From the NCBI GenBank assembly GCA_041688535.1, contig JBDNIB010000297.1, forward strand, positions 1 to 40,742: DNA of 40,742 bases, written 5' to 3'. This document shows, one piece after another, positions 1,426 through 36,546 of this stretch. The translations under genes were made by a program, and so were the position numbers. The stretch's first letter is position 1; every line of letters begins with the position of its first letter. Source of the DNA: Prosthecobacter sp. (lineage in GTDB: Bacteria > Verrucomicrobiota > Verrucomicrobiia > Verrucomicrobiales > Verrucomicrobiaceae). A model generated the notes under the pieces. The model was not told the DNA's origin, ran no database searches, and saw nothing but the letters and a program-made list of their open reading frames with translations.

Positions 1426-1481
1426 CCCAGCTCCCCGCCCCAAGCCCCAAGCTCCCTGCCCCATGCCCCATGCCCCATGCC
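1426..1481 (+). repeat. Heptamer tandem repeat (CCA[A/T]GC[C/T]-like, 8 units)
   Basis: Direct reading; same family at 7608-7649 and 33591-33611. Confidence 0.85.
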
Positions 1482-1514: not shown

Positions 1515-2591
1515 GTGCCCCTAGCCCCGCCCAGCCCCAGCTACCGTTTTCGCCGCACGCGCGGACTGCTGCGCATGCGCGACCTCGCGGCCTTCCTCAC
1601 CTGGCTCGCCCCTCGCCTCGGCTTCCGCCTCGCCTCCGACGAATTCACCCGCGTCTCAGAGAGCGGCGGCCGCCTCACCATCTCCCGCGACCGCCCCGGC
1701 CCCATCGGTCCGCGTGGCCTCACCGGCCTCACCGGCGCGGACGGCCTCACCGGCGCGGACGGCCCCCCCGGTGCCAACGGCGGCGTTTTCCCCGGCCCCG
1801 CCGGCCCCGCCGGCCCCGCTGGCCCGCTCGGTCCCACCGGCGAGCGCGGAGATCGTGGCCCCAAGGGTCCCAAGGGGCCGCAGGGGCTGCTCAAAGGTCC
1901 GCAGGGACCCATCGGCCCCGCGCAAACAGCCCCCGGCCCCGACGGCCCCATCGGCGATCCCGGCCCGAATAAAGGCCCGCCTGGCAACCTCGGCCCAAAC
2001 GGTCCCCCTGGAGCCGATGCCGGACCAGCCCCCGCTGGCCCCCCCGGCGATTACGGCGATTCAAACTACACCTATTTCGGCGACGAATACGCCGCCCCCG
2101 GCGCCCCCGGCCCCACCGGCGAACCCGGCGACAAATTCGCCATCATGCCCGTCTCGTCTTCGTTCGTAGTCCCGCCTTCAGGCGGTCCGGCTTCTTCGTT
2201 CGTAGTTCCGCCTTCAGGCGGTCCGGCCTCCGCGTTCGTCGGCCTCTACGCCATCGAGGCCCCCGATGTGATCTTCGAGTCCGTCCTCCGCCTCACCCTC
2301 CCGCCCCGCACCCGGCAGCACATCCTCCTCCTCGATCCCCGCTACCTCCACGCCGTCGAGTGCGACACCCTCCACCTCACCAGCGTCGTCAGCTCCCTGC
2401 CCATCCCCATCCGCGCCACGCTCAACGCCGCCGGCATCGTCCTGGCTCTCCCCTCGCAGCGGCTGCCCATCACCATCTGTCTCACCGTGCAGGCCATCCG
2501 GCGCGGCATGCGTGATCGCCGTTGGCAGACCTTCACGCCCGCGCAAATGCACGCCAACAACCAATTTTACGCCTGCGCCACTGCTGCCTGA
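1515..2591 (+). CDS. Collagen-like tail protein 2 (in-frame REP dimer)
   Basis: [10 protein letters not shown]-motif, GXY repeats, C-terminal [12 protein letters not shown]. Confidence 0.85.
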
Positions 2592-2593
2592 TC

Positions 2594-3670
2594 ATGCTCA
2601 TTTCGCCCAAGCCCAAGCCGTACAGACTGCGCAGCACGCGCGGTCTCGCGCTCATGAGTGATGCCATCGCCTACGTCCGGCATTTGTCGCAGCACCTCGG
2701 CACCTTCCGCATCGATTCCAGCGAAATCACCGCCAGCTCCGCCAGCGAATTCGGCGGCAGCATGGACATCACGCGCACCACTGATCGCCCCGGTCCCGTC
2801 GGCCCCCCCGGCCCCGCCGGCCCCCCCGGCCCCGCCGGCGATCCCGGTTTTTCCGGCCTCGGCGGTGCCGATTTTTTCGGCCCGGCCGGAGAAGCGGGAG
2901 AAGCCGGTCCAGCCGGCACTCTCCCCGGCGACAAGGGCCCCCTCGGCGCTACCGGCATCATCGGCGAAGACGGCGGCGCAGGCCCCATCGGTGCCGACGG
3001 CCCTATCGGCCCGCTCACCCCCGGCCCCACCGGCTATCCCGGTCCCAATTCCGGCGCGCTCGGCCCCGATGGCCTCACCGGCCCCACCGGCGCGGATGGC
3101 ATCGAGACCCCCGGAGCACCTGGCCCCCCCGGCCCCGCCCGCGATGTGTACGTCACGTACTCCCCCCTCGGCTCCAGCCCCGACGGCCCCCCCGGCCCCG
3201 CCGGCGCCAAACTAGCCATCATCGAAATCCCCGCGTTCGTAGTTCCGGCTTCAGCCGGTCCGGCCTCCCAGTTCGTAGTCCCGGCTTCAGCCGGTCCGGC
3301 CTCCCAGTTCGTCGCCTTCCACGTCGCCGAAAGCCCCCGCTGCATGTGGCTAGACCACCTCCACGCCGTCCTCCCCGCGCATCGCACGAGCCTCGAAATC
3401 CCCATCGATCCGCTCTGGCTCGAATGCCTCGACAGCGCCGAGTCCATCGAAATCCTCAGCCTCCACATCCACGGCGGCGACGTCACCGCAGAGCTCCGCG
3501 ATTCCTCCCGCATCATCCTGCACGCCACCTCTGCCACGCGCCATTCACGCGCCGCCGTCATCACCGTCGCCGGTATCGCGCGCGCTCACAGCGGCCGCCG
3601 CTTCCCGCAGTTCACCGCCGCGCAAGCGGCCCGCAACGCCGCTTTCTGGTCATCCTCACTCAACCATTAA
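2594..3670 (+). CDS. Collagen-like tail protein 3 (in-frame REP dimer)
   Basis: ATG 2594; [10 protein letters not shown]-motif, GXY repeats, C-terminal TAAQAARNAAFW. Confidence 0.85.
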   Translation: MLISPKPKPYRLRSTRGLALMSDAIAYVRHLSQHLGTFRIDSSEITASSASEFGGSMDITRTTDRPGPVGPPGPAGPPGPAGDPGFSGLGGADFFGPAGEAGEAGPAGTLPGDKGPLGATGIIGEDGGAGPIGADGPIGPLTPGPTGYPGPNSGALGPDGLTGPTGADGIETPGAPGPPGPARDVYVTYSPLGSSPDGPPGPAGAKLAIIEIPAFVVPASAGPASQFVVPASAGPASQFVAFHVAESPRCMWLDHLHAVLPAHRTSLEIPIDPLWLECLDSAESIEILSLHIHGGDVTAELRDSSRIILHATSATRHSRAAVITVAGIARAHSGRRFPQFTAAQAARNAAFWSSSLNH

Positions 3671-7560: not shown

Positions 7561-7607
7561 CCCCCCGTCTCCGTTCGTAGTTCGGGCTTCAGCCCGTCCG
7601 CTCCGCC

Positions 7608-7649
7608 CCAAGCTCCAAGCTCCAAGCTCCAAGCTCCAAGCCCCAAGCT
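7608..7649 (+). repeat. CCAAGCT heptamer tandem repeat x6
   Basis: Direct reading. Confidence 0.9.
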
Positions 7650-9887: not shown

Positions 9888-10095
9888 CGGACGGGCTGAA
9901 GCCGGGACTACGAACGGGGGAGGCGGACGGGCTAAAGCCCGAACTACGAACGAAGAAGCGGACCGGCTGAAGCCGGGACTACGAACGGGGGAGGCGGACG
10001 GGCTAAAGCCCGAACTACGAACGAAGAAGCGGACCGGCTGAAGCCGGGACTACAAACGGGGGAGCCGGACCGGCTGAAGCCGGGACTACGAACTC
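9888..10095 (-). repeat. Tandem array of six GTAG-REP hairpins (35/36-nt period)
   Basis: CTAC at 9908, 9944, 9979, 10015, 10050, 10086, between convergent genes. Confidence 0.95.
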
Positions 10096-14635: not shown

Positions 14636-14967
14636 TGCTGCGTGCGCAGGTGGAGGTGGAGATCGCGGGGGTGGTGTGCGAGCACGAGGCGATGCGCGAA
14701 GCGCTGCATGAGATCGAGCGGCTGTTCCCTGGGGCGCATGAGCTGACGCTGGGAGTGCGGCAGGCGATGATCGGCGCGATGTCGCGGGTGAGTGGGATCC
14801 GGGTGCTGCTGGGGGCGGCGACGATGTGCGGGGAGCCGGACCGGCTGAAGCCGGGACTACAAAACGAAGAAGCGGACCGGCTGAAGCCGGGACTACGAAC
14901 GGCGATGCGGCTGTCGCTGCATCGGGCTGGGGATGATTTTTTGGATGAGAAGGAGGGCTATGAATGA
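14632..14967 (+). CDS. Hypothetical protein (in-frame REP dimer)
   Basis: ATGA coupling; PDRLKPGLQNEEADRLKPGLRT. Confidence 0.6.
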   Translation: MMLRAQVEVEIAGVVCEHEAMREALHEIERLFPGAHELTLGVRQAMIGAMSRVSGIRVLLGAATMCGEPDRLKPGLQNEEADRLKPGLRTAMRLSLHRAGDDFLDEKEGYE

Positions 14968-15997
14968 GCTGGCATTATTCGCGGGCGCTGGTGGAGGAAT
15001 ACTTGGCGGGCAATTGCTCGGCTGGAAAACCATCTGCGCCGTCGAGTGGGATGCCGGCGCACGGGACGATTTGGTCGCCCGGCAAAACGATGGATGCCTC
15101 CCGCCATTCCCGATCTGGGATGATGTACGAACCTTTGACGGACGCCCTTGGCGCGGACGTGTTGACGTGGTGTCTGGCGGGTTCCCGTGCCAAGACATTT
15201 CAGCAGCCGGAAAAGGTGCTGGGATCGACGGGGAGCGAAGCGGAATGTGGATGGAAATGGCCCGCATCATCGGCGAAGTACGACCGCAATTCGCGTTCGT
15301 GGAAAACTCGCCAGTGCTCACTTCTCGAGGGCTTGGACGTGTTCTCGGGGACCTGGCCGCGCTGGGGTATGATGCGCGATGGGGAGTCGTGGGAGCTGTC
15401 CACGCCGGAGCTCCCCACAAGCGGGAACGAATCTGGATCCGAGCTGAACTGGCCGACGCCGAAAGCATCGGATGGGCTCATGGGAGATTGCCCGGCGGAG
15501 CGTCGACGAAACACTCCGGGGCTGCCGACGGCGGTGCATCTGTGGCCGACGCCCACAGCGGGAGAGGGGCGCAGGACAGACAGCCCGGCGGCGCGGCGGC
15601 GGAACACTCCGGGCCTGGCGTCAGCAGTGAATATGTGGCCGACGCCGAGGGCGTGCATGACTGGAGCAGCCACGCCAGAACGGCTGCACGACAAGAACCG
15701 CAACCTGGAAAGAGCGGTGGCGGAAACGATGTGGCCGACGCCGGACGCGCACATGGGCAGCGGGGGGCGCACCAGCGCGCGGCCGCCAACTGGCAAGCGG
15801 CCGAGCGGGACGAAGCAGCAAATTACAATCAACGACGCGGTGAAATGGCACGCCGAGACTCCTGCCAATGGTGGGCAACTGAACCCGAGGTGGGTCGAGT
15901 GGCTGATGGGGTGGCCGCTCGGGTGGACAGACTGCGCGCAATCGGCAACGGCCAGGTACCGGCAGTGGTGCGACTCGCATGGAATTTGCTCCGATGA
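14960..15997 (+). CDS. C5 DNA cytosine methyltransferase, alpha chain
   Basis: LFAGAGG (I), GGFPCQDIS (IV), ENS (VI), HKRERIW (VIII), RLRAIGNG (X). Confidence 0.9.
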   Translation: MNELALFAGAGGGILGGQLLGWKTICAVEWDAGARDDLVARQNDGCLPPFPIWDDVRTFDGRPWRGRVDVVSGGFPCQDISAAGKGAGIDGERSGMWMEMARIIGEVRPQFAFVENSPVLTSRGLGRVLGDLAALGYDARWGVVGAVHAGAPHKRERIWIRAELADAESIGWAHGRLPGGASTKHSGAADGGASVADAHSGRGAQDRQPGGAAAEHSGPGVSSEYVADAEGVHDWSSHARTAARQEPQPGKSGGGNDVADAGRAHGQRGAHQRAAANWQAAERDEAANYNQRRGEMARRDSCQWWATEPEVGRVADGVAARVDRLRAIGNGQVPAVVRLAWNLLR

Positions 15998-16049
15998 AAA
16001 CACTATGAAAAAGCCAACACAGAACGTGAATGGGGAGGGTGCGGAATGA
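14964..16049 (+). CDS. Overlapping +1-frame protein, probable methyltransferase beta chain
   Basis: 361-aa open frame; four WPTP repeats; LNPRWVEWLMGWP resembles motif IX; ATGA-coupled at both ends. Confidence 0.75.
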   Translation: MSWHYSRALVEEYLAGNCSAGKPSAPSSGMPAHGTIWSPGKTMDASRHSRSGMMYEPLTDALGADVLTWCLAGSRAKTFQQPEKVLGSTGSEAECGWKWPASSAKYDRNSRSWKTRQCSLLEGLDVFSGTWPRWGMMRDGESWELSTPELPTSGNESGSELNWPTPKASDGLMGDCPAERRRNTPGLPTAVHLWPTPTAGEGRRTDSPAARRRNTPGLASAVNMWPTPRACMTGAATPERLHDKNRNLERAVAETMWPTPDAHMGSGGRTSARPPTGKRPSGTKQQITINDAVKWHAETPANGGQLNPRWVEWLMGWPLGWTDCAQSATARYRQWCDSHGICSDENTMKKPTQNVNGEGAE

Positions 16050-32298: not shown

Positions 32299-32724
32299 AT
32301 GCGCGATCTCATCTTCACCAACTTTATCCACGGCTACCTCGACACCGCCGCATCTCGCGCCGTCGGCATCCCCGCCGCTGCCGTTTGCGCGCTCCTCAAA
32401 ATGGACGCAGACACCGACGACCTCGACCCGCGCATCTGCATCACCGCCGAAGAGCAGGGCACCAATCGTTCGCGCCAGCTCACCGTCACCATCAGCGCGC
32501 GCGGCACCGTCGCTCGCGCCACCACCGATCCCTGGCTGGACGCCATCGCCCTCCGCCTGGCCGATCACCACCAGCTCGCCCTCCACCTCGCCGCGCAAAA
32601 CTACAGCACCCGCCTCGGCTACCAAATCGAGCACGTCACACCCCCCGCCGCCGTCCGCGTCCAACGCACCGAAACCGGCCCCATCGAATCCGCCGTCGCC
32701 ATCACCTTCCACCTCACCGTCTAA
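32299..32724 (+). CDS. Putative tail terminator
   Basis: Size and synteny. Confidence 0.5.
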   Translation: MRDLIFTNFIHGYLDTAASRAVGIPAAAVCALLKMDADTDDLDPRICITAEEQGTNRSRQLTVTISARGTVARATTDPWLDAIALRLADHHQLALHLAAQNYSTRLGYQIEHVTPPAAVRVQRTETGPIESAVAITFHLTV

Positions 32725-32810
32725 CCCTGTTCGTAGTTCGGGCTTCAGCCCGTCCGCCTCCCCCGTTCGTAGTCCCGGCTTCAGCCGGTCCGGTCAGCCC
32801 CTTCCACCGC

Positions 32811-33563
32811 ATGAAACAACTTCCACCCGCGCCGTATTATGACCGCGACGGCATCACTCTTTACCACGGCAACTGCCGCGAGATACTACCGCACCTGCAG
32901 CCCGTTGACGCCGCCGTCACCGACCCGCCCTACAACGAAACTAATCTTGAATGGGACACCTGGCCTGTCGGCTGGCCTTCGCTGCTCGCGCCACTGACCA
33001 ACTCGTTTTGGTGTTTCGGCTCGTTGCGGATGTTCTGGGATCGGCGCGATGAGTTTGGCGCGTGGAAACTTGCGCAGGACATCGTTTGGGAAAAACACAA
33101 TGGCAGCGGGATTGCCTCAGATCGGTTCCGCCGCGTGCATGAACTGGCGGTTCATCTTTATCAGGGGGATTGGGCGGCGCTCCATAAGGCCGTCCCGCGC
33201 GTTGGCGAGCATCGCGCCACAAAGATGATGCAACGCGGCAAGACGCCCCACCTCGGAACAAAAGGACAACTTGGAATACAAGAGGGCCAAAAGCTCATGC
33301 GCTCAGTCATCTACGCCAACAGTTGTCAGGGCTACGCAGTCAACGAAACGCAAAAACCGGAGGCGCTGATTTCGCCCCTGCTGGAATATTGCGTTCCTCC
33401 CGGCGGCAGCGTGCTGGATTGCTTTGCTGGTAGTGGCACCGTGCTCGCCGTCGCGCGCGCTCAGGGGAAGCGCGCCATCGGCATTGAGCAGCGCGAAAGC
33501 CAATGCATCGAGATCGTCAAGCGGCTCTCACAAGGCGATCTTTTTCAGGATCCCCGTTCGTAG
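32811..33563 (+). CDS. Beta-class N6-A/N4-C DNA methyltransferase
   Basis: TDPPY, TQKP, VLDCFAGSGT; bounded by 41-bp REP direct repeats. Confidence 0.9.
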   Translation: MKQLPPAPYYDRDGITLYHGNCREILPHLQPVDAAVTDPPYNETNLEWDTWPVGWPSLLAPLTNSFWCFGSLRMFWDRRDEFGAWKLAQDIVWEKHNGSGIASDRFRRVHELAVHLYQGDWAALHKAVPRVGEHRATKMMQRGKTPHLGTKGQLGIQEGQKLMRSVIYANSCQGYAVNETQKPEALISPLLEYCVPPGGSVLDCFAGSGTVLAVARAQGKRAIGIEQRESQCIEIVKRLSQGDLFQDPRS

Positions 33564-33659
33564 TCCCGGCTTCAGCCGGTCCGGTCAGCCCCATGCCCCA
33601 CGCCCCATGCCCCCCGCCCTCATTTGACACGCCCCCTCCATCGTCACACCGCCTCACCC

Positions 33660-34145
33660 ATGAAACACCTCCTCCTCCTCTCGCTCCTCCTCTGGCTCCC
33701 TGTCCTGCCCGCCCTCGCCGCTGATCTCACCGTCACGCCAGCGAATTTCCTCCCCGGTGCTGGCGCAAAATTCCACACCGGCATTGCCGGTGCCACGATC
33801 ACCGCCGGCCAGCTCATCGCGATCTCCGCCAGCACGGGAAAATTCGTCCTCGCCGATGCCAATGACGCCGCGCTCAGCCAAGTCATCGGCATCAGTGCGC
33901 ACGCCGCGCTGAACACGCAGCCTCTCGCCGTCGTGTGGTATGCCGATGACCTCACCCCTGGTGCCACGCTCGTCATGAGCACCATGGTCTATGTCTGCTC
34001 CGCCACTCCCGGCGGCATCGCCCCCGCCGCCGATCTCTCCGCTGGCGGCCTCTATCCGAACGTCCTCATGATCGCCATCTCGACCACGAAATGCGTCTTC
34101 CGCGCCCCCGGCCTGCTCGGTTCGGCGCTCTCGGTCGCGCCTTAA
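33660..34145 (+). CDS. Decoration/cement-like protein with signal-peptide-like N-terminus
   Basis: MKHLLLLSLLLWLPVLPALA-A followed by AGATITAGQ...LADAN...GI motif. Confidence 0.55.
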   Translation: MKHLLLLSLLLWLPVLPALAADLTVTPANFLPGAGAKFHTGIAGATITAGQLIAISASTGKFVLADANDAALSQVIGISAHAALNTQPLAVVWYADDLTPGATLVMSTMVYVCSATPGGIAPAADLSAGGLYPNVLMIAISTTKCVFRAPGLLGSALSVAP

Positions 34146-34791: not shown

Positions 34792-34849
34792 CGTCTCCCC
34801 CGTATTGTAGTCCCGGCTTCAGCCGGTCCGACTCTCCCCGCCTAACACC

Positions 34850-35629: not shown

Positions 35630-35690
35630 TCCCCGTATTGTAGTCCCGGCTTCAGCCGGTCCGGTTCCCTCTTTTTGTGACCACCAACCA

Positions 35691-35954
35691 ATGCCGAAAA
35701 TGATCGAAATTTTACACAACTTCTTCGCCGGAATCACATTCGCGTTGGGCGTAACAGTCGGTGCAGTCCTCTGCCGCATCGCCAGCAAGGAAGGCCGCAC
35801 CGAAATGGTGGATACTGTGAAATCCAGCCATGAGCGAATCGAAGAACGGCTACGCATGAGCTTGAAATGCCATGAGCGGATAGCCGGTGCAATGGAGGCC
35901 ATAGCGCAAAAATCTGCTGGGAAGAACGCCGCTACCTGCGACGACCAACTTTAA
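35691..35954 (+). CDS. Small single-TM protein
   Basis: N-terminal TM; lower GC than flanks. Confidence 0.6.
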   Translation: MPKMIEILHNFFAGITFALGVTVGAVLCRIASKEGRTEMVDTVKSSHERIEERLRMSLKCHERIAGAMEAIAQKSAGKNAATCDDQL

Positions 35955-35958
35955 TTCC

Positions 35959-36198
35959 ATGTCCGCCAAACACTCCGCCCCGCCTTCTTCGTTCGTAGTT
36001 CCGGCTTCAGCCGGTCCGCTTCCCCTCACACTCCCATCTGGTTCTGCCTTCTGGCTGCTCTTCGAGCACATGAGCCGGCAGCACAATTTATCGCTGCTCG
36101 ACTCCGAGCTCGCCGATGTCTGCGCCGCCGTCGATCAGATGCGCGCGGCATGGGAGGCTAACGCGCTGCACAACCAACTCCCCGCCGCGCCCCTTTAA
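35959..36198 (+). CDS. Hypothetical protein (in-frame REP)
   Basis: SSFVVPASAGP peptide. Confidence 0.55.
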   Translation: MSAKHSAPPSSFVVPASAGPLPLTLPSGSAFWLLFEHMSRQHNLSLLDSELADVCAAVDQMRAAWEANALHNQLPAAPL

Positions 36199-36211
36199 TT
36201 CCACCCTCCTC

Positions 36212-36451
36212 ATGCTCACCTGGCACGACAACCACGCCACCATCATCCGCCTCACGGATGCCACCGAGCGCACCTGCGAGCTCGGTCATTTCGCCGGGCG
36301 CGGTCTGTGCTTTTTGAACATCCCCCGCTGTGATCATTCTGAGTTGCGCATCGACCCCCGCCTCGCCCGCGAACTCGCCACAATCCTCTCCCACTTCGCC
36401 GACTTCCGACAACTCCCCCATCGCCCCACCGCCCCCGACTACAGCATCTGA
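36212..36451 (+). CDS. Hypothetical protein
   Basis: ATG 36212; ends at a REP dimer. Confidence 0.55.
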   Translation: MLTWHDNHATIIRLTDATERTCELGHFAGRGLCFLNIPRCDHSELRIDPRLARELATILSHFADFRQLPHRPTAPDYSI

Positions 36452-36546
36452 GTTCGTAGTCCCGGCTTTAGCCGGTCCGCCTCCCCGTATTGTAGTCCCG
36501 GCTTGAGCCGGTCCGGTTCCCCTCACCCACACACCCCCACCCCACT

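What the first reader, a model, noticed from the sequence alone, without database searches (positions are those of the whole stretch)
32761..33592. Methyltransferase moron bounded by a perfect 41-bp REP direct repeat
Seen: 32761-32801 equals 33552-33592 (CCCCGTTCGTAGTCCCGGCTTCAGCCGGTCCGGTCAGCCCC), including flanks beyond the REP core. The right copy supplies the stop codon, and the gene interrupts the neck/tail module. Inference: the gene entered as a REP-bearing circle, so REPs may serve as attC-like cassette sites.
Basis: partly seen in the sequence, partly recalled or inferred. Interest (0 to 1): 0.72.

Follow-up and report, generated by a model that had tools for sequence, protein, structure and literature searches.

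The report
Swappable methyltransferase slot between phage REPs
A freshwater bacterial virus carries an extra DNA-methylase gene between two identical copies of a short host hairpin repeat, and a near-identical sister virus carries a different methylase in the same spot; the repeat likely served as the landing site that was copied when the gene came in, rather than as a dedicated cassette-exchange signal.

Summary
The repeat is real: 32761-32801 equals 33552-33592 (44 bp against a sister phage). The window is a circular temperate phage from a Prosthecobacter-related genome bin, with 31-32 copies of the host's GTAG REP, about 55 times the bin's density. The gene is an N6/N4 methyltransferase moron. 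Of 26 related loci, 25 have this spacer empty, four of them (three distinct) with a REP or REP-like hairpin but no gene. A sister phage, 95-98% identical, holds an unrelated methyltransferase between the same repeats, its only gene-sized difference in 19.7 kb.

The attC-like circle reading is only partly supported. Both flanks are shared, which points to duplication of the target. The swap boundary lies inside the gene's 3' tail. No attC structure, integron integrase, cassette array or excess circle was found. The REP supplies the stop codon only in this allele.

Best reading: insertion at a REP doublet with a 43-44-bp target duplication, then allele exchange by short-homology recombination (0.58). 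A nick by the host REP transposase (RAYT) is a plausible but unproven trigger (about 0.2). An earlier scan note on other DNA saw REP repeats around a methyltransferase cassette and called them a dead transposase relic.

The parts
32299..32724 (+). Upstream core gene, predicted tail terminator (lambda gpU fold)
   Evidence: AlphaFold model pLDDT 87.7; Foldseek top hits lambda gpU; 21 homologs
32733..32756 (+). REP-a, first unit of the left tandem doublet. In the sister phage it is fused with REP-b through loss of 36 bp.
32758..32801 (+). Left copy of the duplicated segment: linker, REP-b (GTAG, 2 nt, 5-bp stem) and the 9-nt unique 3' flank. 41 bp are identical to the window's right copy and 44 bp to the sister's right copy.
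32802..32810 (+). Short leader; no sigma-70 promoter match upstream of the gene
32811..33563 (+). Orphan N6/N4 DNA methyltransferase, allele A (250 aa; DPPY at 38, FAGSG motif at 203-210); lower GC than its flanks. The sister holds unrelated allele B here.
33521..33546 (+). 3' tail (LSQGDLF codons) shared at DNA level between alleles A and B; inferred right crossover of the swap
33552..33592 (+). Right copy of the repeat; its GTAG gives allele A's stop codon
33588..33608 (+). 7-mer tandem array that continues the unique flank only on the right copy (native 3' context of the target)
33623..33630 (+). TTTGACA motif found in this spacer in all 26 related loci examined; likely a late promoter or activator box, untested
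33660..34145 (+). Downstream core gene, gpD-like decoration fold with an N-terminal hydrophobic stretch

Best explanation
An orphan DNA methyltransferase gene sits in an otherwise empty tail-module spacer and likely entered at a pre-existing REP doublet in one event that duplicated 43-44 bp of the target, after which its coding body was likely swapped for an unrelated methyltransferase by short-homology recombination. Shown: empty spacer in relatives, REP-only intermediates, the duplication, and two alleles. Inferred: the order of events, and a nick-and-copy route in which a break just 5' of REP-b primes synthesis across the hairpin and 9 nt beyond, switches to foreign DNA, and reseals onto the displaced original. 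The nick could come from the host RAYT (about one third of this reading) or from a fork stalled at the hairpin. Also inferred: the gene is read from the late operon and would methylate progeny DNA against host restriction, so exchanging alleles would change the protected motif. The REP acts as landing pad and portable homology, not as a dedicated cassette site.
For: Empty ancestral spacer: 25 of 26 loci; REP or REP-like hairpin without a gene in L064, L083 and L082/L115. The left copy has the native 5' context, because the REP-a/linker unit recurs at 9947, 10018 and 28861. The right copy has the native 3' context, because the 7-mer array continues only there. One insertion with target duplication explains both. 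The sister differs in gene content only here over 19.7 kb. Allele B's tail matches A's codons, and S in LSQGDLF is native to A's family (P0264, 87% identical) but rare in B's (14 A, 1 S, 1 D, 1 G among the 17 of 119 homologs that have the motif). REP-by-REP exchange is active: a 36-bp unit is missing at 32741 and extra at 35989 in the sister. Both alleles occur in public runs: A-type contigs in X1-X4; contigs with the sister's flank changes and B-type tail in X5 and X7. A cognate RAYT flanked by this REP exists in the genus and as a contig-end fragment in the bin. In the reconstructed target the duplicated segment runs from a C|T to a C|A step, the two cut sites of the same-shaped group 3 REP (PMC8266576, passages). 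A nick-prime-rejoin duplication model is in PMC3333891 (passages).
Against: No close relative with the exact 41-mer once and no gene was found; the REP-only relatives are distant (about 45-60% amino-acid identity in the neighbouring genes) and may be independent colonisations. A second near-perfect two-flank REP repeat (35630-35669 versus 36482-36521, 39 of 40) brackets a gene that REP-free relatives also have there, so such repeats can arise without insertion. The C|T and C|A fit is post hoc (naive 1/12 x 4/35), the strand is C-rich, allele A's right junction is A|T, and allele B's left junction is C|G. None of 86 same-orientation REP pairs in 36 host loci showed a short two-sided duplication. 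Four of five complete IMG/VR relatives have no PF01555 gene at all, so the gene is not generally needed. Methylation activity and target were not tested.
Confidence: 0.58

Rival explanations
1. The gene came in first without duplication, for example into the linker of the REP doublet. A REP copy with its flanks was then copied locally, or converted, to the other side, so the direct repeat is a by-product of REP spread.
For: Neighbouring copies at 34807, 35640 and 36492 share a rare 5' variant, and the 34807/35640 pair brackets a core gene with 33 identical bp. The 35640/36492 pair shares both flanks. REPs occupy 7 of the 20 late-gene junctions listed.
Against: It needs a second event exactly at the insertion junction that recreates the doublet found elsewhere in the phage. 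The 9-nt flank ranks first of 210 pairs and falls on the one slot that is swapped.
Confidence: 0.2
2. One reading: REPs work as attC-like cassette sites, and methyltransferases arrive and leave as REP-bearing circles moved by a dedicated recombinase.
For: Two different genes occupy the same repeat-bounded slot. The sister's left REP is an a/b hybrid, so a crossover did occur inside the hairpin at the slot's left edge. A cognate HUH transposase is at hand. Allele A's closest viral homologs travel between true attC-like sites.
Against: Identical flanks on both sides cannot come from a crossover with an independent REP. The right swap boundary is inside the gene. No array was seen. The REP pattern was absent from all 46 loci around allele A's viral homologs and from 20 of 20 around allele B's non-self homologs. 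Contig depth over the gene equals that of the flanks in X1-X4, though contigs cannot show rare circles. Loop-out between the 41-44-bp repeats could spread an existing slot but does not explain its origin.
Confidence: 0.12
3. The repeat is chance: two unrelated REP insertions of a rare subtype on either side of a gene gained by ordinary illegitimate recombination.
For: The phage has 32 copies, and other pairs share 40-46 exact bases.
Against: The long matches elsewhere come from tandem linkers. The 9-nt flank is unique to this pair in the bin, in IMG/VR and nearly so in 144 genomes.
Confidence: 0.06

Closest known systems
Group 3 GTAG REP / TnpA_REP (RAYT), REPtron Mb of Marinomonas (PMC8266576, passages read); BIME amplification models of E. 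coli (PMC3333891, passages read)
   Same: GTAG, 2 nt, then a perfect 5-bp stem; a RAYT gene flanked by the same REP in the host genus; tandem gain and loss of units; duplication ends fit C|T and C|A.
   Different: Here the REPs have colonised a phage, as singles and head-to-tail units only (0 of 32 inverted, against 46 of 88 in the host bin), with no RAYT in the phage. The passages read describe no capture of a foreign gene.
Orphan methyltransferases acquired by lactococcal 936 phages (PMC4190342 and PMC4759559, passages read)
   Same: Extra methyltransferase genes without a restriction partner, inserted between late genes at a variable site; protection against restriction was shown there.
   Different: Different module; the passages read mention no repeat-bounded slot; activity is untested here.
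Phage-borne attC cassette clusters (CALINs) carrying N6_N4 methyltransferases (PMC9892861, passages read)
   Same: Same cargo family; allele A's nearest viral homologs (L002-L004, 61-63%) lie beside attC-like sites.
   Different: This slot has no attC; the gene is trimmed to its core and bounded by REP copies.
Mosaic exchange between temperate phages by relaxed homologous recombination (PMC3945230, passages read); moron concept (recalled, no call)
   Same: Allele swap with crossover in short conserved ends; flanks are a patchwork of 100% and about 94% tracts.
   Different: No Rad52-like recombinase was identified among the 38 phage proteins scanned; one edge of the swap is a host REP.

Membership tests
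Integron attC cassette system | Integron integrase (IntI) available | tested here: inconclusive
   Phage integrase is phrog_1/PF00589. No TIGR02249 match over the cut-off among 11 matches in the bin, which is 72% complete.
Integron attC cassette system | attC architecture (paired R and L boxes, extrahelical bases, long imperfect hairpin) | tested here: not met
   The repeat folds as a 5-bp stem. My attC pattern scan found nothing at the slot but found such sites in L002-L004.
Integron attC cassette system | Each cassette brings its own site and exchange occurs at the site | tested here: not met
   Both copies share both flanks; the right swap boundary is inside the gene.
Integron attC cassette system | Arrays of several cassettes | tested here: not met
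   One gene in each of the two filled alleles, none in 25 of 26 related loci.
Integron attC cassette system | Excised circular intermediate | not testable with these tools
   Only assembled contigs were available; they break at the repeat.
GTAG REP (group 3) / RAYT | GTAG tetranucleotide before a short perfect stem with compensated variants | tested here: met
   present in 70 of 104 other genus genomes
GTAG REP (group 3) / RAYT | Cognate RAYT gene flanked by the REP | tested here: met
   L208, L209 and L216 match NF047646 at 82.7, 77.4 and 70.4 bits against a cut-off of 80 (1 of 3 over). A 78%-identical N-terminal fragment beside a REP pair ends contig C943 of the bin.
GTAG REP (group 3) / RAYT | Cleavage and strand transfer at CT/CA by the cognate enzyme | not testable with these tools
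   Only a post hoc fit of the duplication ends.
REPIN (inverted REP doublet) | Two REPs in inverted orientation | tested here: not met
   0 of 32 phage copies are in inverted pairs.
Phage moron | Extra gene absent from syntenic relatives | tested here: met
Phage moron | Own promoter and terminator (definition recalled) | tested here: inconclusive
   No sigma-70 match upstream of the start and no terminator match at its end; the consensus scan may not fit this host.
Orphan N6/N4 amino-methyltransferase | PF01555 fold with DPPY before the SAM-binding motif, no adjacent endonuclease | tested here: met
   neighbours are structural genes
Orphan N6/N4 amino-methyltransferase | Methylates a specific motif | not testable with these tools
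   Needs a methylome.

The most novel reading that the evidence does not exclude
A host RAYT transposase acting in trans on a REP-laden phage captures foreign genes. It nicks at C|T just 5' of a REP; the freed end copies the REP to a C|A site, switches to foreign DNA and is resealed by the transposase. This leaves a REP-centred 43-bp duplication and a reusable slot in which methyltransferase specificities are exchanged. REPs would then be gene-capture platforms for phages, a function for a domesticated transposase whose role is still open.
Probability: 0.2. Interest if true: 0.82.

Novelty: new variant of a known kind. Interest (0 to 1): 0.5.

Why it matters
How morons first enter phage genomes, and what RAYT/REP systems are for, are both open questions. 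This locus offers a natural series: empty spacer, REP only, allele A, allele B, plus a cognate transposase in the host genus. That makes REP-directed gene capture directly testable. Even under the plain reading it documents a temperate phage colonised by host REPs at about 55 times the host bin's density, in a strand pattern that follows GC skew, with a methyltransferase slot that differs between near-identical sisters. My literature searches (listings and abstract starts only) returned no report of a REP-bounded moron or a REP-rich phage. Subscription journals are mostly missing from that library.

Tried and rejected
1) Joints in the contig layings that appear to skip the gene or go back have sides of 23-32 nt and loose ends from other REP copies of this phage. 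I treated them as assembly-graph artefacts, not as evidence of an empty site or circle. One run in each group may be the source of the assembled record, and same-year freshwater studies may be one campaign.

2) Idea that the slot replaces the ParB-methyltransferase that four prophage relatives carry before the small terminase: weak, because 4 of 5 complete IMG/VR relatives have no PF01555 gene.

3) Search for a donor: neither allele has a match at E <= 1e-40 in 144 other family genomes. The family-wide PF01555 search was uninformative. The nearest homolog of allele A (P0264) and of allele B (P0145 onward) could not be seen in DNA context.

4) Y1_Tnp Pfam search for the transposase returned loci with no REP nearby (0 of 4 and 0 of 30). 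The cognate RAYT was found instead by reading REP-flanked loci.

5) Other REP-rich phages: none in the annotated phage collection, only the sister for a tandem pattern in IMG/VR, 0 copies in 5 complete relatives.

6) The rest of the sister genome was not recovered, so the comparison covers 19.7 of 40.7 kb.

7) Host control: 36 loci hand-picked from pattern lists of 12 genus genomes; 0 of 86 pairs had a short two-sided duplication. The two rows that passed the flank filter lie in one duplication of at least 500 bp.

8) Rows left out of the slot census: duplicates of listed loci (L057, L059, L062, L065, L069, L070, L073, L074, L076, L080, L081, L084, L105, L106, L108), L085-L104 where no upstream homolog was detected, and L113, L114, L116 where the downstream gene was not found. 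Several kept loci are near-identical, so 25 is not 25 independent lineages. No supplements were read.

Full report
What the window is. The window is a whole contig of a 72%-complete genome bin. It encodes an integrase, terminase, portal, protease, capsid and tail genes, and a sister record runs across its end into its start, so it is a circular temperate phage. Named relatives are Prosthecobacter and other Verrucomicrobiales prophages.

The observation. The two 41-bp copies are exact and 791 bp apart. The gene between them is an N6/N4 methyltransferase whose stop is the TAG of the right GTAG, with lower GC than its neighbours. The upstream gene models as a lambda gpU-like tail terminator and the downstream gene resembles gpD-type decoration proteins, weakly. 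The 24-nt core is a GTAG REP with a 5-bp stem. The phage holds 31 of the bin's 105 strict copies, 0.76 per kb against 0.014 elsewhere. What is special is only the 9-nt 3' flank: first of 210 pairs, unique in the bin, found only in the sister in IMG/VR, and with its first 5 nt once more in 144 genomes.

The slot across relatives. In 25 of 26 related loci the two neighbours are adjacent, the spacer starting at or near a conserved TTTGACA (some loci are near-duplicates). In L064, L083 and L082/L115 a REP or REP-like hairpin sits between the stop codon and that motif with no gene. The 26th locus is a sister phage, 95-98% identical in the flanks, which carries an unrelated methyltransferase (35% identity over 75 residues) between the same repeats. 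Over 19.7 kb this is the only gene-sized difference; the other large indels are a 36-bp REP unit missing at 32741, one extra at 35989 and an 18-bp difference in a collagen-like repeat. A-type contigs cover the gene in runs X1-X4. X5 and X7 carry the sister's flank changes and a contig with allele B's tail, including the extra base that makes it read through the REP; a further assembly has the same read-through (P0269).

How the repeat arose. The sister's right copy matches the window's left copy over 44 bp. The left copy has the native upstream context, since the REP-a/linker unit recurs three times elsewhere in the phage. The right copy has the native downstream context, since the flank runs on into a 7-mer array only there. 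One insertion that duplicated the target explains both (inference). Integration of a circle carrying an independent REP would leave different flanks on the two sides, so it does not explain the origin, although loop-out between the repeats could act afterwards. Against my reading, a 39-of-40 two-flank REP repeat at 35630/36482 brackets a gene that REP-free relatives share, so local copying with flanks happens, and the exact empty site was not found.

How the alleles were swapped. Identity with the sister breaks just after the left repeat and resumes about 30-35 bp inside the gene's 3' end. Both families end in a similar peptide, but the serine form with identical codons is native to A's family and rare in B's. 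B therefore likely replaced an A-like resident by a crossover in the tail (inference). The sister's left REP is an a/b hybrid, so a REP-by-REP crossover or slip occurred at the other edge. This fits short-homology exchange among temperate phages (PMC3945230, passages) better than exchange at cassette sites.

Role of RAYT. The REP belongs to the host genus (70 of 104 genomes). RAYT genes flanked by it were found, and the bin has a fragment of one; the phage has none among the proteins scanned. The REP has the shape of the Marinomonas group 3 REP, whose enzyme cuts at CT and CA on both sides (PMC8266576, passages), and a nick-prime-rejoin route to duplication has been proposed (PMC3333891, passages). 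The duplicated segment in the reconstructed target ends at C|T and C|A. The naive chance is about 0.01, but the test is post hoc, the strand is C-rich and two of the four present-day junctions do not fit. No short two-sided duplication was seen in 86 host REP pairs. I give the RAYT route about 0.2.

The attC question. This slot fails the attC tests. Allele A's three closest viral homologs do lie beside attC-like hairpins; five such sites fold with 11 of 21 pairs compensated. Phage attC clusters carrying this enzyme family are published (PMC9892861, passages). So the cargo family uses real cassettes elsewhere, but here the gene has lost those arms.

Function. From known orphan phage methyltransferases in late modules (PMC4190342, passages), the gene likely protects progeny DNA from restriction. 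No promoter match precedes it, so it is likely read from the late operon. Neither point was tested.

Verdict. Observation confirmed; interpretation partly supported; a new variant of a known kind (methyltransferase moron), with a testable minority case for RAYT-driven gene capture. Passages of PMC3733652 show that GTAG REPs, including intragenic ones, are known in Verrucomicrobia, and passages of bioRxiv 2021.07.10.451892 state that RAYT genes are absent from mobile elements. The moron definition is recalled.

Noticed in passing
window 578-36515 (32 copies): REP orientation follows GC skew: all 19 plus-strand copies lie in the C-rich arm and all 13 minus-strand copies in the G-rich arm (about 9-22 kb), although the annotated genes are all on the plus strand. 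This suggests replication-strand-biased insertion; tandem copies are not independent.
   Followed up: partly
window, whole phage: REP density is about 55 times that of the rest of the bin; phage copies are single or head-to-tail, never inverted, unlike the host's. Five complete relatives have none.
   Followed up: partly
window 2166-2240, 3239-3312, 6671, 13431, 13658, 14606, 14860-14896, 18693: REP units lie inside open reading frames, including tail-fibre, ParB-like and small early genes; several are 36-bp in-frame units with a short terminal duplication.
   Followed up: partly
window 35630-36521: Second near-perfect two-flank REP repeat (39 of 40 bp) around a variable region; the 87-aa gene at 35691 had no hit in the 21 related sequences compared.
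   Followed up: partly
window 25909, 28898, 33623: TTTGACAC motif before late genes, conserved in the slot spacer of all 26 related loci and often followed about 12 nt later by GTCA; candidate late promoter or activator site.
   Followed up: partly
L002:990-5100, L003:714-774, L004:2863-2983: Phage contigs with several attC-like sites around small genes, including the methyltransferase homolog.
   Followed up: partly
window 14933-16049: Two long overlapping ORFs on the plus strand in different frames; one matches a PHROG DNA methyltransferase family.
   Followed up: no
window 33660-34145: Decoration-fold protein with a hydrophobic N-terminal stretch resembling a signal peptide, placed in the tail module rather than the head module.
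   Followed up: partly
window 1437-1478, 7605-7646, 33588-33608: 7-mer tandem arrays; two of them start 4 nt after a REP.
   Followed up: no
L219 (G033:C18:23100-27400): Host locus where a 37-bp REP repeat and an adjoining 420-bp repeat bracket a three-to-four-gene cluster.
   Followed up: partly
L001:6130-6200: Allele B has a 21-bp tandem repeat in its coding sequence whose copy number differs between assemblies (404 versus 390 aa).
   Followed up: no
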